Of a stretch of DNA of 64,000 bases, positions 12,201-64,000 are shown piece by piece. Below the pieces are notes generated by a model that was not told the origin of the DNA, did no database searches, and was given only the letters and a program-made list of their open reading frames with translations. The translations under genes and the position numbers were made by a program. Positions within the stretch are counted from its first letter, which is position 1, and the number at the start of each line of letters is the position of its first letter. Source of the DNA: Saccostrea echinata (Eukaryota); the NCBI RefSeq assembly GCF_033153115.1, contig NW_026889774.1, positions 19,282,001 through 19,346,000 of the forward strand, in the 5' to 3' direction.

Positions 12201-15200
12201 AATAAGTTTGCTAATTCTTACGTAGTTTTTCCTGCAGTTCTAGAACAGCTACTTCTAGGTCATGTTCCCTTGTGACCAGTTTCTCCCTTTCTTCTGTTAA
12301 TGAGGTGATCTATTAAATGAAACAAACAATTACAGACTTAAAATATATACTTATAAATATATTTATCTAAGATTATGCCATAATTTATTTTCAAATATCA
12401 ATCACTAAAAAATCTTTTTTTCACTTGAGCATTTGCAAAAGCAATGTTCAATTTTCTAAAATTTTCAAAAAAAACAAAAAAAACAAAAAAAAAAAACATT
12501 AAACAACACTGGATAAAAAGAAAATAGTCAAAGCACAGGTGCTTGTGAACAGAACCATTTTTTTCCTATGATATGAATGATGAATAAGTGTAAAAAACAT
12601 AATTTATGAAAAAAAGTTGAACAACCCTCTGGTTGTATATTCACTATATTGGAGGTGGGTGTCCTTTCTACAAGTACCTGTGAGTCAAAGTTCATAAATC
12701 TTTCCATCTAAGAAAAATGCAATAATCTGACAAAAGAGCTGGGAGATATGGTGTTGTAACTGGTCTATAACTGACTGATAGAGAAGTGACATTACCTGAC
12801 TAGTGAGCTGGGAGTTATGATGTTGTAACTGGTCTATAACTGACTGATAGAGAAGTAATATTACCTGATTAGTGAGCTGGGAGTTATGATGTTGTAACTG
12901 GTCTATAACTGACTGATAGAGAAGTGACATCACCAGACTAGTGAGCTGGGAGTTATGGTGTTGTAACTGGTCTATAACTGACTGATAGAGAAGTGACATC
13001 ACCAGACTAGTGAGCTGGGAGTTATGGTGTTGTAACTGGTGTATAACTGACTGATAGAGAAGTGACATTACCTGACCAGTGAGCTGGGGGTTATGGTGTT
13101 GTAACTGGTCTATAACCAACTGAGAGAGAAGTGACATTACCTGACTAGTAAGCTGGGAGTTATGGTGTTGTAACTGGTGTATAACTGACTGATAAAGTGA
13201 CATTACCTGACTAGTGAGCTGAGAGTTATGGTGTTGTAACTGGTCTATAACTGACTGATAGAGAAGTGACATTACCTGACCAGTGAGCTGGGAGTTATGG
13301 TGTTGTAACTGGTCTATAACTGACTGAGAGAGAAGTGACATTACCTGACTAGTAAGCTGGGAGTTATGGTGTTGTAACTGGTGTATAACTGACTGATAGA
13401 GAAGTGACATCATCAGACTAGTGAGCTGGGAGTTATGGTGTTGTAACTGGTCAATAACTGACTGATAGAGAAGTGATATTACCTGACTAGTGAGCTGGGA
13501 GTTATGGTGTTGTAACTGGTCTATAACTGACTGATAGAGAAGTGATATTACCTGATTAGTGAGCTGAGAGTAACGGTGTTGTATCTGGTTTATAACTGAT
13601 AGATAGAGAAGTGACATTATCTGACTAGTGAGCTGAGAGTTATGGTGTTGTAACTGGTCTATAACTGACTGATAGAAAAGTGACATCACCAGACTAGTGA
13701 GCTGGGAGATATGGTGTTGTAACTGGTCTATAACTGACTGATAGAAAAGTGACATCACCAGACTAGTGAGCTGGGAGTTATGGTGTTGTAACTGGTCTAT
13801 AACTGACTGATAGAGAAGTGACATCACCAGACTAGTGAGCTGGGAGTTATGGTGTTGTAACTGGTCTATAACTGACTGATAGAGAAGTGACATCACCAGA
13901 CTAGTGAGCTGAGAGTTATGGTGTTGTCTGGTCTATATCTGACTGATAGAGAAGTGATGTTATGGTGTTGTAACTGGTCTATAACTGACTGATAGAGAAG
14001 TGACATTACCTGACTAGTGAGCTGAGAGTTATGGTGTTGTAACTGGTCTATAACTGACTGATAATGCCTCTTGCTCTCCTCCTTTTCTGACACTAATCTG
14101 TTGTAGGTCTCCTGAATCTACAACAACAAAATTAATATGTACAATATAATCAATTTCAATCTGTTAAAGGTCATTATTATTCTCTCAATCTACCCAAGAG
14201 TAACAGCAGAGAGTTAAATAATACTTGTTTTATTTCAAACTTATCAGTGACAAAATATGTAAGAAAATGTGCTTCTATTTCAACTTTAATAAACAAATCT
14301 TTGAATGCATGTAAACAAATCAAGATTTGTTTGTGAAACACTATAAGGCTTGTTCCATGTTGTGAAGTCTTGTAAATACTTTACCTTATACTGAAATGAA
14401 TGCACAAAAATTTACTTCATTAGCATACCCTATTTTGAATTCTTCATTTTTCATATTACATGTTAGGACCAGAGTAAAAATCCTTGTCAACTGGAAGAAT
14501 GACAAGTCTCCTGGACTTCAGTATCAAAAAAAGTTACAGAGCTTCTACATCTTTCAGTAGACAAAAACATTTATAAAACACACCTCGGAGAGTTCCGCCC
14601 TGAGAGCCTCTGTTTCACGTCGCTGCTTCTCCATTGCCTGTAATGTCTGCTCCTTGTTATCACCCTGACTGGACGACTGCTGGACATACAGTTCTGCCAT
14701 CTCCACCTTTGACCTTAGGTCTCTGACACTCTCCTCTAGCTGACTACACTCCAATTTCTGAAGTTAATTTTGAGATTTTATTTTAACTTTTTTTCAGAGA
14801 AAAAAAATATTCATGTATATATACATTCACAATGTCATATTGAATGTAAATTAAATCATTTTTTTTAATGTAGAATATTCTACTAGGTATAATACACAAT
14901 GACCATGGTAATACATGTACATGCAAGCCTACAATATTACCTTGCTCTGAAGTTCTCCTCCCAGCTCTTCTACCTGCTGATGTAAATCCTCCTGGGTTTT
15001 ACTACAAAACACAAAAAATAAATTACAAGCAACCCAATAAATTCACATTTCATGTTCTCTTTTTTTATTCATTTTTGGGTTTTGGCAAAAAGTGTAAGTT
15101 TTAATTCTAACATGAACAGAAACTTCAAGTATGTGCACATCCCCCTTCAAGGAGCAAATGATCCTTGAAATCATCAGTGGCATAAATTGGACCTATCAAA

Positions 15201-18200
15201 ATTGTACATTATTCATGAAGAATGAGATTTTAGCAACTTTTTTTTAAATAAATATATTGTTCATGTCTGTGATATGATGTAATAGAATGTTTTTACAATT
15301 TCCCTGTATAATTACAAAGAAGTGGCATCAACAAAACAAAAGAAATTTTATAATACCTCTATTTACCTGTACAACTACTTGTAAACATAACTTTATGTAT
15401 TTTTAACTGTAAAATGCTATACCTTGATAGACGAAGATCCATCTTCAGTCTGTCAACTTCTCTTGCAAACTCTTTACTGCTCTACAACAAAATTACAACA
15501 AACTTACATGTAGATGATAAAATGCTATTTGAATAAACTTGATATGTTTTCAATGGAAACAAGTACAAAACTTGTATTAAACTACACAGAACTTGTTTTA
15601 TGCATTCAGTCCTAGTTCTTTGATTAAGATTCTGCTTTTTCCATCAATGCTGAAAAATGTTATGCTGACATACATGTACCTTCACTTTAAAGATTAAAAA
15701 AAGCTCACTTTTTCAAACTGCTGAGCAGAGTTGTTGGTTGTGGCAAGACTTCTTTCTAGGTCACCAACTCTCTGTCTGGATGTTTTCAACCGAGAACTGA
15801 TGTCCTCAATTTCAGCTAGAAGTAAATCATAATCCATAATACTTCATTACATACATTGTAACATGGCAATCACAAATCTTTTAAAAAATCATACCACGTA
15901 TTCACTTTCTTAATCATATTTTTGAATTGCCAACACAGATTTACGTACATACAGTATAAACTTGGAACTTTTTCCATTCAGACATTTTGCATGTTGACAG
16001 AAAAAGTTGGCACTAAATTTATCATTAAGAAGTGTGACTTACAAAGCCTCTGTGCTGCTATCTTTTGTGACTGGCTCAGCTGTGATTGCAGTTCCGTCTT
16101 CTCAGCCACTAAAATACCAATAGTTTGTATGTGTACCTGAAAAATAATCACCTGTATTATGTAAATGTACAATAATATATGATAAATGACGATGTAAGAA
16201 TTATCTTGCCAAATTCACCTTTAATCCGTCAAAGTCAGCTCTGCAAGAATACATTTTTGAGCGATATCTATATATGCTGTCTAAATGCCATAACAACTTT
16301 TTAAACATAATCTTAAGAACAGGATTTCAACAGCATCCATTTAAGTACAACTCCCTTGAAGCAACCACATGCATCAATCAGTGAACCACTGGCTTTTCAT
16401 GACAATGAACTATACCTAGTAAGCATCAATAATTGTTTTTAACTTTCCCGTTGTATCTAAAATCTCCTGAAATATCAGATATAAATCCAAAAGAATGTAA
16501 AAACCTGATTAAATATTCTTTGTGTAACCAAACAAAAAAAAACCTGAATCGTAAAATAAAATGTGCAGATGGGAAGTGAAGGACTGGTAGTAAATGATGG
16601 AGGATATACACTACCTGAACATCTGACTGAATTGCCTAAAAAAAGATAATTCATGCAGTAACACTTACAACAAAACATTTAAATATTCCTAAATTAGATC
16701 ATATTCTCCATAATCCAATCTAAATTCCCTACTCGTTGCAATCATGCCCTTATTTCTGATTTAGTGTAAGAATAAATAGTGCACCTTTAGACTTCCTTAT
16801 TGCTTTGCCCTGGGAGAAATTTGGACATACCTGTAGTTGTTCTCTAAGTGGCCCAATTTCTTTTTTCTGTTTTTCTGTGGAGCTCTCCATTTCTTGGTCC
16901 AGCTGAGATTGCAATGACTGTGCATGTTCTCTCTACAATAAAGCAGGATTCAATCATGCATTAAATATCAGCTACATTGTATACAGCAAAAAGCATTCAC
17001 AGATTTAAACTAGGCAACTTTCAGCCGACAAATTACACCCTCAATNNNNNNNNNNNNNNNNNNNNNNNNNNNNNNNNNNNNNNNNNNNNNNNNNNNNNNN
17101 NNNNNNNNNNNNNNNNNNNNNNNNNNNNNNNNNNNNNNNNNNNNNNNNNNNNNNNNNNNNNNNNNNNNNNNNNNNNNNNNNNNNNNNNNNNNNNTCAACA
17201 AAAAAAATTTCTTTTTAAGCCCCCGTTCACACATAGACGCCGCTTCTACTACGATCAAAGCGTGGCCGATCATGACAAATCGCAGGAGAAACGTAGCGCA
17301 GTATGATCGCGGTAGGGTCTTCATGATTGGAGAGCTCTACGGTCTCGCCACGCTTATTTTGAACATGCTCAAAACAAGTCTAGCGGGATCGTGGCCAACA
17401 AGAATTGGGGTAAAGTTGTAAAAAGAGCGTAGTAGAAGCGCCGTAATCGTACAAGCAGCGCGGAAGCATCGTGGAGAGATCTCTGTGATCTTTGTGATCG
17501 TAGTAAAAGCGCAGTACAGTCGGGAACTTATCAAGTACCCTCCTACAACGCTCCCACTATGTTCTTACTACATTCCCACCATCAAGTAAATCATACTAGA
17601 AGCGTAACACAATCGTCATATGATCGGCACCACCGTAGCGATATCGTTGTACAGTCATCTAGGTCTGAATGTCGTAGTGGCAACGTAGCGTAAACGCAGT
17701 AAACGCGGCCGCTGGTCGGCAACGGTCTGCGTAACAGCGTAGCAGAAGCGTGTTAGCAATGCGGTTGACGAAGGGGCCTTGTAGTACGGTCGTAATGAAG
17801 ACCATAATTTGCCAAATCGCTCGATTTAGATGCCGATCGGCTCCGATCCGCCCCGATCCAAAACTTTTTCAGATCCTGGCTTGATCGGGATGATCGTTGT
17901 AAAGTCGCAGCTCTGTGTGAACGGGGGATTAATATTGATTTTTTCACACAGTTGAAACTTTTAAGTTAGCTCTTGTATTTCTATGACAAATAAAATGCAA
18001 GTTCATTGATAAAGGTTTCTGAGGTATACAAATATTAAATCGTACAAACTAAATAGAACAGTTTAATTAGATACTGACTGCCTGATGGACCTGTTTTTGT
18101 AGCTTATGGTTTTCTTCTATTTGTTTCTGCAGTTGACTTGCCAATTCTTTGTTCCTTGTCTGAAAGAAGAGAATCCTTTTTTAAACATATAGTAAATATA

Positions 18201-37813: not shown

Positions 37814-38767
37814 GTTTGCTTATTCGGTGGACAAGCTCCGCTTGTATATAGATACCAAGTTTAGCCGAAATCTGGCGAAAAGATGGAGTCTGTCTGGTTA
37901 ACCGGACGCCTCAAGAACAAGCCCGAATTGTTACAGAACAGCCTAAAAAAGCGGAACCAAGAATTTGAATACTAGCATTGAATAGAATTATGATTGAATT
38001 TCTTTCAGTTTTTTAATTTTTTTTTCTTCTTAATTTTGCTTGAAAAACTTGCCCTGGTATCAACAACGTAATCATATTTTTTTGTAATTTGTAGAAGAAT
38101 GGAGATTATAGTTTTTAAAGTAAGAAAAATGTTTAAAAAATGTATGTTAAAAAAGAAAAGAAAATGCATGCATTAGGGTGTTTGGAAAATGTAAATATAT
38201 AAGAAGCCACACAAGAAGTAAAATTTCTTTTTCCCGGTCCAAGAAACCTCTGCCAAAGATTTTTTTATCGACACTAAGTAGGTTCATTCTCAAATCTCAA
38301 AAACATATAAATTATAACATGGGTAAAATTGGAAGTTGTTCACGGGTTTTATTCTGATGATTATGTATCATATTTGAAAGAATAGGAACATAACGTGTTG
38401 AGATTTGGACAACTTAACACCATATTTAAAAGATATTTTTTAAAGACATCATTATTTATTTTCTTATTATTTAATTTTCACCTGTTTTTACTTTACATTT
38501 TTCAGAGTTACTCCTCTTGCACCGATACTGATTTGGTCTGGGAGCTATCAAGCATATGGTATGCTTAGAAAACATCCAAGTTTCCATTAGTTCAAGCCTA
38601 AAGGTTATCTATTACACCATCCCATTGAGTCCGAATCTATTTGCAATACAAGCATATCTAAAATTCTTTTCAAAAATATTTTATCAAAATCAGTACGAAA
38701 TATTATTAGAACTTTTTAGCTAAGCGGCAAGTTTGAATCCATAACATATTAACTAAGTTCTGAAAGT

Positions 38768-53127: not shown

Positions 53128-54540
53128 TCGTCTCCCAGCTATGAAGATGAACCTCAAGGCCTGCATGGTAGATTGACTTGACTTATGGGGTAAAATGACT
53201 TAAATCAACTGTATAAATCATCTCATTTTTCTTTCAACTTATAAAGTTTTAAAATGTTTAAAAAAGCCATGTACTTCATGTACTAACCTTTAATTCTTGA
53301 ACATCTTTGTCCTTACTATTTAAAGCAATCAGAAAAATGTGATTTGAGTTGCTTTTTATTAAGTTTTTTTCTTTATTAGCAAGCTCCAAGTCAACTGTAG
53401 TTGTTTCAAAAGTAAGAAGTTTATGAATACTAGAAATGCTAATTTGAACACCCAACAATAGTCATTTAAGGAATGAGTTTAATTTTTCTGAATGTAAACT
53501 GGTTGGTGCGATGTTGTAGCATAGTTTTCTCTCCGGAAAAGCGGGTCCAGGTTAGTTTTTCCCCCACGGGAGATATTATTTCCTCCAATCAGAATGCACA
53601 AAGTCAGTAGAGAGTTTACCCCTGTTTCCGGATTACATCAACCGAAATCTTCGATCAAGCCTTATCCTGGGATTTGAGGGGTTGACCAAAACCATCGAAG
53701 TACATGTATATGCAGTCTTACACAACATTTCCTTATCACTCTCGGATATCAAGTAGCAAAATTTTATTGCGCGATCATATACAATGAAAAAATAGCCGTC
53801 CACTAAACTAAAAAGTGAGTCCCCTGGATCCAGGCATACGGGTACAATAATAAAAACTCATTATATCTGAGAAAATAACGCTCATCGAGCAGAAAAAAAC
53901 TGTCTGTGTGATTATAATGAGACCTTAATTGTGAAAACCAGCTTCCCCGGGTCCAGGACCCAGTAATAGACTAAGTTGATCATATGTTGAAAAATTTATT
54001 TAACATCTTATATATCCCTATATCTAAATGGCAAAGTGGCTGCATGCTTATAATTGCAATTATATCCCTTTATCTAAATTGTTTAATTCATTAACTACGG
54101 ACCCCGGGGTGGGACTAAATTGTTAAAAATATTAAAGATACATTTAACTTTTGAAAACTCTCAATTTATTCCAAAAACGCATCATTGCAGCAGCAGCGTA
54201 TTTTATGAAAACCTCGATACTAGAAATAATCTTGGTAATTCATGATATCGTTATTGCAAATGCAAATCTAATTTAACCCTATAAACTTCATATCACATCA
54301 ATAGTGTTAGTGCTCATATGAGACAGTCTCTTCGTCCCTCCCCTCTCTTCTTTCTTTGTTGGGAGAGGGTTACACCGGTTACAAAACGCTCTTTAAAGGG
54401 TTTAAGGCTTTAATGTTCTTTGTACATGACCTTAAATTTTAAGTCAAAAAGTGAAAAATAATGGGAATATTAAAAAAAAAATGTATGTACAAGTAGGACA
54501 ATTTGTTTAGGATAATTCTTTTATTAAATGTATTTATTTC

Positions 54541-56295
54541 TCAGCCAATCAGCCCCTGGCCTGGATTACTGGGGGGTAATGGCGTCGGTGACACCATAAA
54601 TCCAGAAAATGTGGAATATACTTCATTTTTGGCTCCATACAATGCATTTGTTCCTCGAGCTTGAACAAACACCTGGTCCTCTGGAAATAAGAGAAGATAT
54701 AATCACAAGTTTGGAAATGAAAGTGTAACTCACAAAACCATAGCCTGGTTTTCTGACGACACTAGTACCTGACCCAGATTGATTAAAACGGAAGTCCATT
54801 TAGTTCCTGTTGCCTCATTTTGTAGTGGTTCTGAAAGGGACAACCATAAACAACCAGTACACCCACCAAAGATTTATAATCTGTTTAATAATATGTAACA
54901 CACAAAGTATATGACATCATCCGATGATGTTTCCCGAGACCGGCGGAAGTGTGACCACACCCGTGCGACCAATACCGGGAACTATCATGAAACCAGAAAA
55001 TGTGCTATAAACTTCGTTATGCTGTCCGAACATGGAATTGACACCCCTGGCTTGGACAAAAACCGTGTCCTCTGAAAAGCATAATTCGTTCGACAACTCA
55101 GTGATCGTTCAATGAAGGAAAGGAATCATTTTTTGATGTATAAATCGGCATTTATTTAGCGAAATGCTTAAAGCTAGGGAGAGAGGGGCTAAGCATTGGC
55201 AATTATTGAATCAGTTTCACTTAAAAGAAAAGCTAATAGCAGCATCAGCATTACATATTCAGCATTGTTAGCATTTATAAAAAGCTAGTTACATAATCTC
55301 TGTAAAACAAATGTATGTAATAAAGAAGAAACAAAACACAAACAAGCAGATCAAAAAACAAAACAAAAAAAACAAACAAACAAACAAACAAACAAACAAA
55401 ACCACTTAATTAAAATACCAATATGTACAAAACAAAAGTATAGCTGCATGAAAGTAACAATGAAAAATAATCACTATAGAGCCCTTCTGGTACTTCAAAA
55501 TTTAAATTCCCGAATAGCAGTTATTAACTTGGAATAGGGTCAGGATATTTACATTTAGCTAAGCATTGCTACCATTCAATGTAGTTAGTTTATAGTACAT
55601 CCAGCATCTAAAATCGTAAGCAGCATATCACAGAGAGCAGCAGTAGTAATGTGCAACAGACTGGTCTTAATCTTGGATCTCTTAAAATTTCATTTTTAAT
55701 TGTAGGAAGGAGTGACTTCAAAACTTTGAAAATATTTTTAACTTACGTTGATCCAACTGCAGTACTATAGTCTGGTGTCCAGAAGCATACCCATTTCGTA
55801 CGTGGGCAAAAACACTGACAGTGTAATTGTTGTTTTGGTAAATATCTAAGTTAAGCTGGCTGGTGGCGGTAGAAACTCCATAGACCAGGAATGTATATGT
55901 ACCCGCGTTTGGACAGGTAAACACTCCGGTACTGGAATCATACCCATTACCGATATTCAAAAATACACGGTCATATGGAATAAGGTCTGTGTCATTGGTA
56001 GTAAGCATGTGAGTAAGACCAGCAGAGAAACCCACAAACTTATCCGTGGGGGTCACGTGAGTATGACCATGATTCCCTGCGGCTCGTACGAAGGATGTAG
56101 GAAAGTAATTGTCGATTCCTGAATAGAAGATTTTTGGTAATAAGCATACTTTAACATGACTTGAAAACTCGCTTCATATATACGTAGATTGCAAAAATAA
56201 AAAGATCATATATTAGTTACAAGGTTACCTTTAACTTGTTCAATTGGTGTAGAGGCAACGAGGGAAACTAAACAGAGACAAACCAAAAACATCAT
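54541..56295 (-). CDS. Secreted globular C1q-domain protein A; exons 56295-56229, 56118-55747, then alternative last exon 55071-54917 (197 aa) or 54680-54541 (192 aa)
   Basis: Signal peptide MMFLVCLCLVSLVAS; gC1q motifs VGFSAGL, YDRVFLNIGNGYDSSTGVFTCPNAGTYTF, D.VFV and STFSGF. Confidence 0.9.
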
Positions 56296-56963
56296 CTAAA
56301 AGAGAAGACCAAACTTTACTTAATTTTACCAAACATAACATAGAGAATGTACGTAGATTTCACAAACTTACCTTAGAATCTAAAAGTCAGACAAGAAATT
56401 AGTGTGGGAACTAACAGGTTGCTGAATGTCAAAGACTTAACAGGTCAAATTCTGCTAGTTCCGTTCAATAGGTTGGAGAAGAATTTAAAAGACTAGAACA
56501 GAACACGGGTATGTACTTGTACAAAACTAGTCTCCTTACCAGGAAGGTTACTGCAGATGGTCCAAATTACATTAATTATATTTTCAATTTTGTTAAAACT
56601 TTGGAACTATATCGCAGTTTTTTCTTGGTGTAGGTTGGCACTTAGACAAAGTGTCTCTTGCGCTGATAAGGACATCTGGGAATTAACCAAAAGACGGTAA
56701 GTCGACCGATGAATGAAAATATTAGATAGTTATTTCAAGTTATAATTTGGATGAAAAATTAAATTGAGAAATAATTATGGATTGTTTATTTGAACAAAAA
56801 ATCCATCAAAATTCTTTAAGTTTGGAAGGAAACGGTTAACCTACAAATTTGATTTACGATCTTGACCTCATTTTTTTCCTTCAAATCTTAAATACGATAT
56901 ATATCTCTGGCATTATCATAAATAATAGAATCTAACAACAGACTTTCTCTTTAATTACAGACA

Positions 56964-57917
56964 ATGAATTCTTTGATATTTACACTTGTGATTGCAGTAG
57001 CTCTTTGTAAGTAACTAAAACATTTCTGATTCCATTTTCATTGAATGTGTATGTTTCCCGTAATACATGTATCCCCTAACCAAAAATAAAATGATTAATG
57101 AATCTTTCAGTTGAAGTAAAGGCAGAAACAAACGCTGTAGCCTTTTCCGCTGGTCTCTCTAAAAACCTACAGCTAGCGCACACCGAGATCGTAGTCTACG
57201 ATAGAATCTTTACCAACGTTGGATCGGGCTACGACTCCAACACAGGGAAATTCCGCTGTCCCACCAGCGGGGTCTATGTTTTCCAATTCCATTCCGTTGC
57301 TAACCAAGTAAGCCAAATTAGTTTCCAGTTCAAATTCGATTTCAACTTATATGGCTCTTACAATGTCTGTGAATATGAATTTATACACAGCCGTTGGTAC
57401 ATGTATGGGATAACAGTAAAAGGTGTTTTTAACTATTGTTATTATCGGTTTTTATTTTTTTTTTACATACTCTAACATGTTCCTGTATATTGGATCCTTC
57501 CAGGATAAAACCATTTGGACGGAACTTTGGCACAATGGGTACTATATTTGCTCGATGTATGGACACACGTCTGGTGATTACGCTTCTGGAGGAAATTCGG
57601 CCGTCCTCCGTTTAACAAAGGGTACGCAAAGTGAACATATGTTCAAAGCATCATCCCAATGTTGTATATCTATATTACCAACCCCTTTTCTTGTAAATAT
57701 TGTAAAAAAAAAAAGTTTGCTTTCATGAGAAGGATTCTTAGAAGTTTTATGTTTTATGCGGATTTTCTTTGAAGGTGATGAGGTTTACGTCAAGGCTGTA
57801 GATGCCGTAAATGGGGCCGCAACCAACATGTATGGCGCCAGTGACGAGGTCTATTCAACATTCTCCGGCTATATGGTGGCTCCAGTCTACGAGGAATTTC
57901 CATCCGTTGTTGGATAG
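56964..57917 (+). CDS. Secreted globular C1q-domain protein B (166 aa); exons 56964-57006, 57111-57307, 57504-57621, 57775-57917
   Basis: Signal peptide MNSLIFTLVIAVALF; motifs VAFSAGL, YDRIFTNVGSGYDSNTGKFRCPTSGVYVF, GDEVYV and STFSGY; AATAAA downstream. Confidence 0.93.
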
Positions 57918-60079
57918 AAATGACTATTAAAACTTCTGTGCAATTTTTATATGTAAATAAAGATATACAGAAATAAATATGTTTATTAACGTCCAATCAA
58001 TTCTGGGATAATGTATTGTCCTCCTGTCTCCCAAGACTATCCTTGCAGGATTGGTTTTGTTCTGTCATTTTTGTCCCACCGTCTGTCACAAACGTATTGA
58101 AATCAAAACTCTATATTGGAGTCGATCTTCATTAAGGTACTACCAATCACTTAGCGCATTCGTTTATGATCCAGAATCACGTGGCAATGTCATGGAATAC
58201 AGTATTTTACAATCTTTTACACAAATTGTATTGCAACATAAAAAAAAATATAATTTCAACTACCAACCCGAAGGAAATAATCATGGATTCTCGCTATTTA
58301 TATAAAGTGCTGGATATTGAGACATTTTTCTTTTCATGGTGCTGTACAAAATTGTGCATTTGTTAAGCAGTTAAAACAAACCGAGCAGTGTATAATGTCT
58401 GGAATGCGTCAGTTACCCCTTCGATGGTGACTGCTCGGGAAATAAGACATTTCTAGATACATGTACTTGAACATTGTGTGGGTGCTCTAGAAGACACATC
58501 CAGACACCAGAACGATGCAACAGTTAAATAAATGAATGCCAATCTGCTTTTTCCCAAATCTTCTCTTAAACGACTTGTATTTATGTCTACGAAATACAAA
58601 CCTAACAACACAATTATGAATAAATCAAAATTAAATTACAAAGAAAACATTTCCAGTCATAAAGCAGTAATTAATGTGATATAGGTATGAAATGATCATT
58701 TCTATACTTACATGTTATGTGATACAAATAGACTACATTAATATGTATGGTATATGAAATTTTTATGAAATGTCATTTTTCGGAATAACTCGTATTCACA
58801 AGTGGAAAGACCGATGTCTTACAGTCCTTATATTTTTTTCGCATCTTCCCAATGTCAGGACCGTTGAGTCCACTTTTGACCGTGGGACTCAGAACCCGTA
58901 ATATTGTGAATGAGAATGATTTTCCCGATCTTGTGAAAAGTAAATCTAAAGAGTAGAAGAACGATAACTCTTACAATAACGATACTCCTTTATTGTTATA
59001 TTGTATTATATATATGTAATCTATAAAACCGCCATACAATGCCATTATGTAATATTTTGTATTATATATTATTGTTGAAATGCAATAAGATGTACGTCTT
59101 AAGCAATAATAATAAATAATAATAATAATAGATTGTTAACAGACAATTTTTATTGTAATGTGTCATGGTTACCATGGCAACATTCCTTATAATTTGAAAA
59201 AAATAGGATTTTGAACAATCAACTTATTCAGCAGTGTTGAAAAGTGACAATGACTGTGTCGAAAGTCAAGTAAATTATATTTGGGAAAACAACTATTACA
59301 AATGTTACCATTAAACAAAGTATAAAATGCAATAATTTTATCTATTTTGATCATATATACATTGAATAATAAGAGCAATCCCCAACAAATAAATTCTATA
59401 TTTAACTATAGTTTGCTATAGTTAACTATAGTTTCAAAGTATTACTATAGTAAATCAAAGTTTTTACTATAGTAAATCGAAGTGTTTTATTATGGATTTC
59501 AAATTGTTATATTTTATATTCTCCAGTTCATAAATGCACATTTTTTATATTAACTGGAACTATTTCTTGTATATTCAAATATTATTTCCACATTTTACAT
59601 CACTGTTATCGAATTTAAGAGATTTTAAGCTTTGAAAGCTCAGACAAAGTTCTAGAGTAAAGTTTTACAATAAACCAAAATATTTAATATTAACGAGGTC
59701 CGTTCCTGAGCTTTTGAGAAGATTTTTGTGTAAACCTCTATCTAAAAAATTCTGCATAATGTTTTATTTATTACAATAAATTTGGATTGTGCAATGCTCA
59801 TTTAACTATATTCAATTAAAACCTCATGATTAAATTCCGTACTGAAAGCATTAAGTTAGAAACTATATTTTGTGGCGGAAGGTTTTATAGAAGAAAATTA
59901 TCTATTTTTCTCATTCGAAATATTTACAGTATTGTTAAGTTTGGAGTCCTATTTTTACATGCAGCCTGCACACAAAGTTATTTTGAGCAGTGAAATGTTT
60001 TATGCTGGTCCTAAATAATATATTAAATTAACCGTCATGAATTCTGTCATCATATTGGACAAATATAACAAATATATTG

Positions 60080-60954
60080 AAAAAGTACAATTAACCGCCG
60101 CTAGAATTGTAACAGGACTTCCGATTTTTGTGTCTAGAGAAGCACTATATTCTGAAACTGGTTGGGAAACTTTAAAAAGCAGGCGATATATTGCAAAAAT
60201 GACAACTATGTTCAAAATTCACACGGGAAGAGTACCTGAGTATTTGCATGATATTGTCCCCAATAAGCGTGAGCATGTATCTCTATACAATACCCGTAAT
60301 AAACAAGATTATATTGTTCCAAGGTGTAGATTAGAATTATTTAGAAACTCTTTCGTACCTGATGCTGCAAAACAATGGAATTTACTAAAAACAGAGGTTA
60401 GAGAAGCCATCTCAATCAAAACATTCCGAAAAAACTTGATAACAAAAATTAAAAATCCACCATCATACTTCTCTTTTGGTAAGCGATACACCAATATCAT
60501 TCATACTAAGCTAAGACATTCCTGTATTCTAAATTATGATCTTTATAAACGAAACATTATAAATAGTCCCTTATGTTTATGTGGAAAAAACGAAGATGTG
60601 TACCATTTCTTTTTTGCATGCAAAAATTATTCTAATGCAAGAAGTACTCTTTTTAATCGCTTGTTCACTCTTGAACTGGTTACTATTGATATAAATCTAT
60701 TATTATGTGGTGATGTTAATTTGCCTTTACAGATAAATAACAGTATTTTTGCTGCTGTTCATAAATTTATTGACGAAACATGTAGATTTTCTAGTTGATA
60801 TGCTATTTAATTGCTTTTTCACTTGTATTAATTGTATTATTTTCTTCTGTTTTGCATGACAAATTGTTATATATAAGGAGAGGAACTTTGTAAGTTGTAA
60901 AGAACTTGTTTCCAATCCTTTTGATGTACTCAATAAAATATGTTCAAAACAAAC
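60080..60954 (+). mobile_element. 5'-truncated non-LTR retrotransposon (CR1/L2-like ORF2 C-terminus plus 3' UTR) with 13-bp TSD
   Basis: EKVQLTAARIVTG..LY.ETGWETL..RR, SFVP...WN.L and CxCG..E...HFFF.C are typical of the post-RT region. Tail AATAAAATATGTTCAAAACAAAC; AACAAATATATTG at 60067-60079 and 60955-60967. Confidence 0.9.
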
Positions 60955-63314
60955 AACAAATATATTGTGAAAGTCTTGGGGAAAAATAGCCCATTTTAGG
61001 CTGAAAATTAGCACTATTTTAGTTATATCTAAAAATTAACATCACATACCCCCACTTTTAATTTTATTTTCTGAATAAACAAGATAATTTTAACCATTCT
61101 GCTTAATCTCAGAAAAATGTCATTACTTTCAAAAGATTTTATTGCTTGTTAAATTTTTAATGCCAGAAAAATGACATTTTTTGAGAGCAAAAAGGTCAAA
61201 TAATTGACTATGCGAAGTAATATGAAACACTTTTTTTGTTGTCACAAATTTTAAAGAGACTATTCAAGACGAAAAAAGACTGTATTTGTTCCCATTATTT
61301 GGATAAAATTTATGAGGAAAAACTTTGAAAAATTGATTTATGTGTAAGACGTAATTAAAGTGCAAAAAGGTCATATTAAATGCTCCGTAGCTCCGAAAGA
61401 AGTGCATTGACCCCCATTTTTGGTTTTGATTTTTAATTAAGCTATGTGTCTAGATTCCCAAAATATACTTGATAAAAAATTCTCAATACTTTTGATAACA
61501 GGATCCAACCTCCTTAAAGAGATATATCAATTTACGCACAAGAAACTGTAAGAAAAGCAGTTGTTTTTCGTGGACTTAATAATCATTATTTTGTTTTCAA
61601 TAACATATTCATAATCAAAACTGGAATGCCTGACACATAAACTCTGAACCATGATACATCTTTGGATATACACTGTATATTCTCAAAATATTCAACATGT
61701 TTGTACACAAACATCGACACTATTTTGCTTAAAAGGTTCAGAATACAAATACAAAAATAATTTGTCATTGTAGTTTAGGTATTAAATATATTTTACGCAA
61801 CCAATCTTCACAAAGTGAGTTTTCTTTAGGAGAATTTTACTGTCAAAAACAAAAGTAGCATTCTTGTAACTTGTACATTGTACTACGTAAATGTTAAATC
61901 ACACATGAAGACAGCAATTTTCTCAAAGTTGTCGATCATATGCATATTTGCAAGTTTTCTTCGGTTGTTTGTATACAGCTGACATGAATGTCACTGTTTT
62001 TTTTTTATTTATTAATTATTATTAATTAATTACATGTAATTATTGTCAACTGCTGACTCCAGTGTATTAATTACATTGTGAAATTACATATATAAAGTAT
62101 ATGTACTGGTCTGTGCTCCATAATTATTTCTGTTTATCTAACTTGTATGTATTCCAGCTATTTCACGTGTATCTTTTATATTGTCTTTGTATATATTGTA
62201 TATAGAACCTCGTGTACCACTAAGTGGTTTGGGTGAATAAATTGAATTGAATTGAATGCTGAAAAGTATCATTAATTTACTTTAAGATATAATACAAAAC
62301 ACTAATTTATGGTACCACACGTGTTATAAGAATTTTTATTTTTATAGAAGCAGTGCTAATGAAAGTATGGAAAAATCTGCAAAAATTGTATTTTTTTTTC
62401 TTCCGATCCATCTGCAGCTAAATTTTTTTTCCATGAAATGTAAAGATAACGAACAGTAATCAAGCTCAAAAATCCAATAAAACAAATTGCGAGTAGAACA
62501 TACATGGACCTCTGAAAACATCTGAGGTGCGATCAGGTGCCATGAAGGAGTAAGCATCCCCTGTCGACCGGCTACATGATCAGAAGTGTGAGACTCCGGA
62601 GTCTTTTATTTCTAGTTCAATGGGATATATCAAATCACCAAATTAATGAATAAATAGTTAATTCATAAAACGTTATTGATATATTTGAATGTCGAATCGA
62701 AGGCCACTTCTTTTCATGTAGTAGGTTTTGAATAAATTTTTGCTACAGAAGTCTGCTAATAATGGAACACAATTAAAACCCAGATTGTTGGAAAACCTGG
62801 TATCCATTGCAATGCATTATATAGATATTGACAATGAGACTCTTAAGCATCCTTTTAATATGAATTTCAGAGTACTTGTGAGTGGAATCAGAATGGTTTT
62901 TAACAAACTAAGGTTGTAGATGACCAATGACAAGATAGGAAAATTTGCGAGTTCCATTGTTATTAAAGAAGCAGTTGTCTATGATGTCAAAAAAAAAGTC
63001 TTTAATTTATAACTCATGAGAAGGACATCTGGGAATTAACCAAAAGACGGTAAGTCGACCGATGAATGAAAATATTAGATAGTTATTTCGAGTTATAATT
63101 TGAATGAAAAGTTAAATTTAGAAATAACTATGGATTGTTTATTTGAAAAAAAAATCCATCAAAATTTTTTAAGTTTGGAAGGAAACGGTTAACCTACAAA
63201 TTTGATTTACGGTCTTGACCTCATTTTTTTTTCAAATCTTAAATACGATATATATCTCTGGCATTATCATAAACAATAGAATCTAACAACAGAATTTCTC
63301 TTTAATTACAGACA

Positions 63315-64000
63315 ATGAATTCTTTGATATTTACACTTGTGATTGCAGTAGCTCTTTGTAAGTAACTAAAACATCTCTGATTTCATTTTCATTGAACGTG
63401 TATGTTTCCCGTAATACATGTATCCCCTAAGCAAAAATAAAATGATTAATGAATCTTTCAGTTGAAGTAAAGGCAGAAACAAACGCTGTAGCCTTTTCCG
63501 CTGGTCTCTCTAAAAACCTGCAGCTAGCGCACACCGAGATCGTAGTCTACGATAGAATCTTTACCAACGTTGGATCGGGCTACGACTCCAACACAGGGAA
63601 ATTCCGCTGTCCCACCAGCGGGGTCTATGTTTTCCAATTCCATTCCGTTGCTAACCAAGTAAGCCAAATTAGTTTCCAGTTAAAATTCGATTTCAACTTA
63701 TATGGCTCTTGCAATGTCTGTGAATATGAATTTATACGCAGCCGTTGGTACATGTATGAACAATAAATAGTGTTTTTAATTATTGTTATTATTATTTTTA
63801 ATTATTTTTAAAATTATTATTTTTATTTTTTTTTTTTACATACATGTACTCTAACATGTTCCTGTATATTGGATCCTTCCAGGATAAAACCATTTGGACG
63901 GAACTTTGGCACAATGGGTACTATATTTGCTCGATGTATGGACACACGTCTGGTGATTACGCTTCTGGAGGAAATTCGGCCGTCCTCCGTTTAACAAAGG
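63315..64000 (+). CDS. Near-identical second copy of C1q-domain gene B, running off the window; exons 63315-63357, 63462-63658, 63883-64000
   Basis: Collinear with 56668 onward starting at 63021. The visible coding sequence differs only by a synonymous CTA/CTG. Confidence 0.88.

What the first reader, a model, noticed from the sequence alone, without database searches (positions are those of the whole stretch)
54541..55071. C1q-domain gene with two intact duplicated last exons
Seen: both exons start in phase 1 and encode the final gC1q strands (DTVFVQARGVNSMFGQHNEVYSTFSGFM vs DQVFVQARGTNALYGAKNEVYSTFSGFM) with different Pro-rich tails. Each has its own poly(A) signal (ATTAAA about 54889, AATAAA about 54538). 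Known: bivalve C1qDC diversity is usually attributed to gene duplication. Inference: here splicing/polyadenylation swaps part of the domain, including a surface loop, giving two variants from one gene.
Basis: partly seen in the sequence, partly recalled or inferred. Interest (0 to 1): 0.7.

Follow-up and report, generated by a model that had tools for sequence, protein, structure and literature searches.

The report
Oyster C1q gene swaps last exons
An oyster gene for a C1q-type protein, predicted to be secreted, carries two copies of its last exon and splices in one or the other, giving two proteins with different ends that three oyster genera keep; the choice is likely set by the splicing factor Muscleblind, and this kind of switch is already known from another oyster gene.

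Summary
Confirmed. One minus-strand C1qDC gene joins exon 2 (donor 55747) to either of two duplicated phase-1 last exons (55071, 54680), each with its own stop and poly(A) signal. Both junctions occur in spliced contigs, both in one run. The products equal RefSeq isoforms X1/X2, also annotated in Magallana and Ostrea, so the collapsed-gene rival fails. Corrections: this is a conserved molluscan orthologue, not a fast-expanding paralogue; the layout occurred in 1 of 49 C1q-bearing stretches; across genera the stable A/B difference is the C-terminal tail (1 of 29 domain positions diagnostic). Additions: intron 2 holds 15 UGCU motifs (control maximum 8 in 1,438 windows), pointing to Muscleblind repression of exon A (inferred); the gene overlaps head-to-head with a second conserved C1qDC gene, a neighbour also in Dreissena. 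Precedent: oyster AOX with duplicated terminal exons (PMC5589949). New member of a known kind.

The parts
56540..56695 (-). Non-coding first exon of the finding gene; outer end not known; the same DNA serves as first exon of the opposite-strand partner
   Evidence: Run X1 contig covers 56543-56695 and joins to 56296; donor GTAAGG at 56539
56229..56295 (-). Coding exon 1: start codon and hydrophobic leader (signal peptide inferred)
   Evidence: joint 56117-56228; identical to RefSeq XP_061184657/659
55747..56118 (-). Exon 2: His-rich linker and most of the C1q domain; ends in phase 1; shared by both isoforms
   Evidence: PF00386 at residues 53-176
55072..55746 (-). Intron 2, single-copy, with 15 UGCU motifs (7 at 55642-55519, 1 at 55348, 6 at 55273-55195, 1 at 55081 beside the A acceptor) around a (TTTG)n tract; predicted Muscleblind control region
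54874..55071 (-). Proximal last exon A: last two strands, 21-aa tail VPGIGRTGVVTLPPVSGNIIG, stop ends 54917, short 3' UTR
   Evidence: Joint in X3 (contig ends 54874), branch in X1; RefSeq isoform X1
54884..54889 (-). Poly(A) signal ATTAAA of exon A, followed by a GU-rich stretch
54511..54680 (-). Distal last exon B: last two strands, 16-aa tail SPTPLPPSNPGQGLIG, stop ends 54541
   Evidence: Joint in X5 and X6 (X6 contig ends 54511), branch in X1; RefSeq isoform X2
54520..54538 (-). Two AATAAA poly(A) signals of exon B (starting 54538 and 54525)
56543..57977 (+). Head-to-head partner C1qDC gene (first exon to 56696; coding exons 56961-57006, 57111-57307, 57504-57621, 57775-57918; 166 aa); one last exon, at the same intron position
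   Evidence: translation equals P0061; close to Mytilus MgC1q41
63017..64000 (+). Start of a second copy of the partner gene; a ~6.4-kb unit occurs three times at ~99% identity; the copies hold only the last ~33 nt of the shared first exon

Best explanation
A single oyster C1q-domain gene splices exon 2 to one of two tandem-duplicated last exons, each with its own stop and poly(A) signal, so it makes two proteins that differ in the last two strands and the C-terminal tail; the choice is likely switched by Muscleblind binding the UGCU-rich intron, and the conserved purpose is likely the different tail rather than new binding loops. Shown: both junctions, both proteins, and their retention in Saccostrea, Magallana/Crassostrea and Ostrea. 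Inferred: exon A has the weaker acceptor (14 of 25 pyrimidines against 19) and the weaker signal (ATTAAA against two AATAAA); without Muscleblind the proximal exon would be defined and cleaved; with it bound upstream of A, exon A would be passed over and B used, giving a tissue- or state-dependent switch. Inferred: A keeps the ancestral tail start (ark-clam orthologue ends IPDVGRTT...GVIG), B is the shortened copy; both end hydrophobic-hydrophobic-Gly. The protein would trimerise like other C1q heads, alone or with the head-to-head partner (untested).
For: Sequence and translations. Junction contigs from two studies. Isoform pairs X1/X2 named in RefSeq for S. echinata, S. cucullata, M. gigas, M. 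angulata, O. edulis; for C. virginica B in RefSeq and A in an unnamed contig of the same cluster. Whole last exons split into an A and a B group, support 96/95. Tail scores within A 53-113, within B 46-84 (identical pair 83), between A and B 8-24; ark-clam tail scores 36-43 to A and 12-22 to B. TGCT 15 in 675 nt: 0 of 1,438 control windows reach it (maximum 8, mean 2.2); p=0.006 against 2,000 dinucleotide shuffles, ATGCT 0 of 2,000; the six other introns of the two genes hold 0-1 each. A Muscleblind gene is in the genome. UGCU/YGCY binding and repression from upstream sites, conserved in distant animals: PMC5041496 (abstract and passages). Same architecture shown in oyster AOX: PMC5589949 (abstract and Discussion).
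Against: No tissue-, stress- or knockdown-resolved data; only contigs were available, which cannot give levels. The UGCU cluster was spotted by eye before it was tested, the wider YGCY count is less extreme (1 of 1,438 windows reaches 18; p=0.02 in shuffles), and conservation of the cluster in other oysters could not be checked (no relatives' DNA). Half the motifs lie nearer the exon 2 donor than the A acceptor, where their effect is not predictable. The tails are low-confidence in the model (pLDDT 65 and 54 in the last two blocks), so no tail function is shown. Gerdol et al. (PMC6835236, Discussion) place positively selected sites more often in the C-terminal part of the domain, which favours a binding role for the swapped loop. 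Confidence given is for the whole statement; the splicing layout alone is about 0.97.
Confidence: 0.55

Rival explanations
1. Ligand-specificity switch: the two exons are kept because the loop between the last two strands changes what the C1q head binds, and tails are incidental.
For: 6 of 7 differences in the first 28 aa fall in residues 157-164. Within each of six species A and B differ at 7-11 of 29 domain positions while shared exon 2 is 89% identical between species. C-terminal part of bivalve C1q domains is hypervariable (PMC6835236 Discussion).
Against: Only 1 of 29 positions separates all A from all B. The motifs NS(M/L)(Y/F)G and ALYG trade places between genera. Saccostrea B is closer to Magallana A (24 of 29) than to Magallana B (20 of 29), and carries A-type residues at 149, 154, 165, 175.
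Confidence: 0.25
2. Redundant twins: the two last exons are near-equivalent and used at a fixed ratio set by signal strength; neither loop nor tail matters much and the UGCU cluster is incidental.
For: Both junctions occur in one run (X1); both 3' UTRs are only about 30-45 nt; loop residues are interchangeable between genera.
Against: Both frames and two distinct tails are kept in six species of three lineages; the UGCU density is an outlier.
Confidence: 0.15
3. Choice by competing RNA base-pairing (docking site and selector) that loops out exon A.
For: Known for tandem exons in arthropods (recalled, no call). Some long-range helices appear in the fold of the region.
Against: Best duplex between intron 2 and the stretch before B is -19.2 kcal/mol against -19.5 +/- 2.4 for 20 shuffles; no long perfect inverted repeat.
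Confidence: 0.04
4. Exon B is the remnant of a separate collapsed gene, or an assembly artefact.
For: The neighbouring partner gene is triplicated, so the region does duplicate.
Against: Exon 2 is spliced to B in X1, X5, X6; B isoforms are annotated in five more species; 10 silent codon differences between A and B.
Confidence: 0.01

Closest known systems
RefSeq 'complement C1q-like protein 4' isoforms X1/X2 (XP_061184657.1, XP_061184659.1, Saccostrea echinata) and orthologues in S. cucullata, M. gigas, M. angulata, O. edulis
   Same: Identical 197-aa and 192-aa proteins; automatic annotation already holds both isoforms.
   Different: No paper found that mentions these records or describes the exon duplication, the UGCU intron or the overlap with the partner.
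CvAOX of Crassostrea virginica (PMC5589949; abstract and Discussion read)
   Same: Tandem duplication of the terminal exon, either copy spliced, shared by oyster species and reported absent from other bivalves and gastropods.
   Different: Mitochondrial enzyme; a stress-dependent switch was measured there, none here; no regulator named in what I read.
Secreted globular-head C1qDC (sghC1q) proteins of bivalves (PMC10672478 passages; PMC6835236 passages and Discussion)
   Same: Leader plus one C1q domain, no collagen or coiled coil; jelly-roll fold.
   Different: Family growth is by whole-gene tandem duplication; the 150 best-scoring C1q matches of 695 candidates in this genome are unbroken domains (biased towards unbroken ones). 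This gene is a conserved orthologue with an intron inside the domain.
Muscleblind/MBNL-regulated exons (PMC5041496; abstract and passages)
   Same: UGCU/YGCY clusters upstream of an alternative exon; family also controls alternative polyadenylation.
   Different: Not shown in a mollusc in the papers listed; binding here is only predicted.
Three-domain C1qDC proteins and clustered molluscan C1q genes (Haliotis sialic-acid-binding lectin; HcC1qDC6, search listing only)
   Same: Nearest non-orthologous relatives are three-domain proteins; linked single-domain genes occur in Dreissena and Haliotis.
   Different: Neither this gene nor its partner groups with one particular domain of the three-domain proteins, so no subunit mapping follows.

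Membership tests
C1q-domain-containing protein (Pfam PF00386) | C1q domain above the curated cut-off | tested here: met
   90.2 and 93.4 bits against 23.7, residues 53-176, both isoforms
C1q-domain-containing protein (Pfam PF00386) | Jelly-roll gC1q fold | tested here: met
   Isoform A model, domain pLDDT 94-98; Foldseek to Caprin-2 and C1QL1/3, rmsd 1.3-1.7 A. Isoform B not modelled.
sghC1q class | Signal peptide, single domain, no collagen or coiled-coil stalk | tested here: inconclusive
   Single domain and no stalk seen; hydrophobic leader seen by eye, no signal-peptide predictor run
sghC1q class | Trimer formation and lectin-like binding | not tested
Alternative last exons from tandem exon duplication | Homologous exons in tandem, same phase, own acceptor, stop and poly(A) signal | tested here: met
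Alternative last exons from tandem exon duplication | Both junctions from one upstream donor in transcripts | tested here: met
Alternative last exons from tandem exon duplication | Regulated (tissue or stress dependent) use | not testable with these tools
   Only contigs of unlabelled runs were served
Muscleblind target | UGCU/YGCY cluster next to the regulated exon | tested here: met
Muscleblind target | Motif conservation, binding, response to knockdown | not testable with these tools
   No DNA of related oysters and no knockdown data available
Lineage-expanded, fast-evolving bivalve C1qDC paralogues | Many close paralogues, poor orthology between species | tested here: not met
   Next best genome match to exon 2 is 43% identical or less among the top rows; exon 2 is 89% identical across oyster genera; orthologue clade spans bivalves and snails
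Docking-site/selector mutually exclusive splicing | Complementary intron elements stronger than chance | tested here: not met
   single species only, no covariation test

The most novel reading that the evidence does not exclude
One two-way locus encodes all chains of a mixed C1q trimer: the head-to-head partner plus isoform A or B, co-expressed from overlapping first exons, with Muscleblind exchanging one subunit's last strands and tail by tissue. This would be a conserved molluscan counterpart of the three-chain vertebrate C1q head, tuned by splicing. Grounds: overlap of first exons, consecutive accessions on the same contigs in Magallana, the two orthologues adjacent in Dreissena, three-domain relatives. 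No binding evidence.
Probability: 0.2. Interest if true: 0.7.

Novelty: new member of a known kind. Interest (0 to 1): 0.42.

Why it matters
It is a clean natural experiment on a C1q head: two chains identical for 147 residues that differ only in the last strands, one loop and a tail, kept across oyster genera. Gerdol et al. state that ligand-binding sites of bivalve C1qDC proteins are virtually unknown (PMC6835236), so the pair is a ready test. It also offers a candidate Muscleblind target in a mollusc, and warns that gene-level counts hide this switch. It does not change how C1qDC diversity arises in general: the layout was not found at other scanned loci.

Tried and rejected
Separate collapsed gene or assembly artefact: rejected. 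General layout of C1qDC loci: 53 genome stretches scanned with a local profile, 49 held C1q pieces, 1 (this gene) had a repeated terminal piece; 40 of these were picked from the 150 hits for partial matches, most proved unbroken, and the genome has about 695 candidates, so this is a sample. Search with exon A as query gave 10 candidates, no other twin. RNA docking/selector pairing: not above shuffles. Intron 2 as a mobile repeat: single match in the genome. Subunit mapping to domains of three-domain proteins: unresolved. Gene conversion of Saccostrea exon B by A: suggested by residue pattern, but B as one group is not rejected (p-AU 0.43); the tree with outgroups was unresolved. First fold with 13 close sequences failed (pLDDT 31.6). 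No listed run is on record as RNA; contig depths (X1: A 63.7, B 143.3) and missing cover in X2, X4, X6 are not used as evidence. Single isoforms listed for ark clam, scallops, Mya, Mercenaria, Dreissena and snails hint that the duplication is oyster-specific, but absence in those clusters is weak. No Mytilus orthologue of the finding gene was identified. Literature: eight searches found no account of this locus; 'splic' has no alternative-splicing mention for C1qDC in PMC6835236, PMC10672478 or PMC4346834; the supplement of PMC6835236 had none of four ids searched, two of them guessed. Subscription papers, such as the C. gigas C1q survey of Gerdol et al. 2015 (recalled), were not searchable and may bear on novelty.

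Full report
Observation. The finding lies at the 3' end of a minus-strand gene. Poly(A) signals are ATTAAA at 54889 and AATAAA at 54538 and 54525. The exons share 59 of 87 nt and 21 of 28 aa, with 10 silent codon differences. Only 236 nt separate A's stop from B's acceptor.

Both exons are used. Six public runs were laid, all contigs, guessed to be RNA. X3 joins 55747 to 55071 and ends at 54874, just past ATTAAA. X5 and X6 join 55747 to 54680; X6 ends at 54511. X1 holds both exons, each with a 15-nt overhang equal to the end of exon 2. X2 and X4 show neither. Introns are uncovered. Independently, the translations are identical to RefSeq S. echinata isoforms X1 and X2, and X1/X2 pairs are listed for S. 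cucullata, M. gigas, M. angulata and O. edulis; C. virginica has B in RefSeq and A in an unnamed contig of the same cluster. The collapsed-gene alternative is refuted.

What is swapped. Both isoforms pass PF00386. A model of A from 81 sequences has a confident domain (pLDDT 94-98), with strands at 149-154 and 170-178 coming from the last exon, and a low-confidence tail; it matches Caprin-2 and C1QL heads at 1.3-1.7 A. Six of seven differences in the first 28 aa lie at 157-164, between those strands. That this loop lies at the free end of a C1q trimer is recalled, not computed. Across 6 A and 7 B sequences only position 164 of 29 is diagnostic; mean identity is 81% within A, 79% within B, 70% between. 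Saccostrea B resembles A of other genera (24 of 29 to Magallana A, 20 to Magallana B) and has A-type residues at four sites where the other B exons differ from all A; a tree of the 29 residues puts it among A, but B as one group is not rejected (p-AU 0.43), so partial conversion is only suggested. Whole exons split A from B at 96/95, and the tails carry that split. The ark-clam orthologue's tail is closer to A. So the stable product of the duplication is two tails; the loop differs in every species but not in a fixed way. Against my reading: loop differences persist in all six species, and Gerdol et al. find selected sites enriched in the C-terminal part of bivalve C1q domains (PMC6835236, Discussion read).

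Not a general diversity route. The gene's nearest genome matches are about 40% identical. It falls in a clade (SH-aLRT 99) with single proteins of ark clam, scallops, Mya, Dreissena, Mercenaria, a unionid and snails. The 150 best of 695 C1q candidates are unbroken domains (the ranking favours these). Of 53 stretches scanned, 49 held C1q pieces and only this gene repeated a terminal piece.

How the choice is likely made. Intron 2 is single-copy and holds 15 TGCT in 675 nt; none of 1,438 control windows from 498 kb exceeds 8; shuffles give p=0.006, and 0 of 2,000 for ATGCT; the six other introns of the two genes hold 0-1. The motif was noticed before testing, and the wider YGCY count is matched by 1 of 1,438 windows. 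Six copies lie 124-202 nt upstream of the A acceptor and one inside its pyrimidine tract; seven lie nearer the exon 2 donor. UGCU/YGCY is the Muscleblind motif, upstream sites repress, and this rule holds in distant animals (PMC5041496, abstract and passages). The genome has a Muscleblind gene. A has the weaker acceptor and signal. I infer: default or low Muscleblind gives A; high Muscleblind skips A and its poly(A) site and gives B. RNA pairing as selector was not above chance. None of this regulation is shown.

Surroundings. A second C1qDC gene runs the other way from the same first-exon DNA: one X1 contig carries splice joints of both orientations around 56543-56695, which I read as two overlapping transcripts merged, not one RNA. 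Its 166-aa product is P0061, close to Mytilus MgC1q41. In M. gigas the accessions run XP_011442507-510 for the finding gene and 511-513 for the partner, on the same contig, and likewise in M. angulata. In Dreissena one RefSeq model fuses a partner-like protein with the orthologue of the finding gene, so they are neighbours there, in tandem (partner grouping is weak, support 84). The closest other relatives are three-domain proteins, without a clear domain-to-gene mapping. The partner is triplicated in ~6.4-kb units that lack most of the shared first exon.

Comparison and novelty. [quoted passage not shown] Automatic annotation already lists both isoforms. Eight library searches found no description of this locus or of splicing-based variation in bivalve C1qDC; PMC10672478, PMC4346834 and PMC6368272 were seen as passages only; subscription papers were out of reach. 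The scan's earlier notes hold nothing on this place or sequence and one unchecked note on twin last exons in mollusc Piezo.

Verdict. Real and conserved; first reading partly right; new member of a known kind; interest 0.42. Layout 0.97; Muscleblind switch with tail as the conserved difference 0.55; mixed-trimer locus 0.2.

Noticed in passing
window 56540-56697: First non-coding exons of two opposite-strand C1qDC genes occupy the same DNA (donors at 56539 on minus, 56697 on plus); none of seven core-promoter words tested was found there except one TATATA at 56898. Proteins of both genes come from unnamed contigs of equal length in other oysters (1,332 and 1,372 nt), as merged transcripts would give.
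   Followed up: partly
window 56664-64000 and G000:C25:19345001-19357800: A ~6.4-kb unit holding the partner gene occurs three times at ~99% identity; recent tandem duplication or assembly redundancy.
   Followed up: partly
window 60019-60795 (+): 259-codon open stretch inside the repeated unit, no Pfam match; reads like a retroelement remnant (recalled likeness).
   Followed up: no
window ~26400-37820 (-): Muscle-type myosin heavy chain gene about 16 kb downstream on the same strand.
   Followed up: no
window ~6200-16200 (-): Golgin A2-like gene, with a 415-codon repeat-rich open frame at 12685-13932.
   Followed up: no
window ~17275-17950 (-): The only control window with 18 YGCY motifs, beside the N stretch.
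   Followed up: no
P0035 (UniRef A0A8W8KS86, M. gigas): A gene model joins part of exon A to exon B, giving both copies in one chain; no such joint in the 6 runs laid here.
   Followed up: partly
G000:C15:3.18-3.23 Mb, C14:16.84 Mb, C19:0.98 Mb, C23:12.76 Mb: Genes with three or more C1q domains in a row; those on C15 are the closest paralogues.
   Followed up: partly
C-termini of A, B, partner and relatives: All three end hydrophobic-hydrophobic-Gly (IIG, LIG, VVG); 23 of 139 relatives end likewise. Could be an amidation or packing signal (speculation).
   Followed up: no
P0245 (Haliotis cracherodii model): One model fuses three C1q genes, each with its own leader, the last being the sialic-acid-binding lectin: a three-gene cluster related to the partner.
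   Followed up: no
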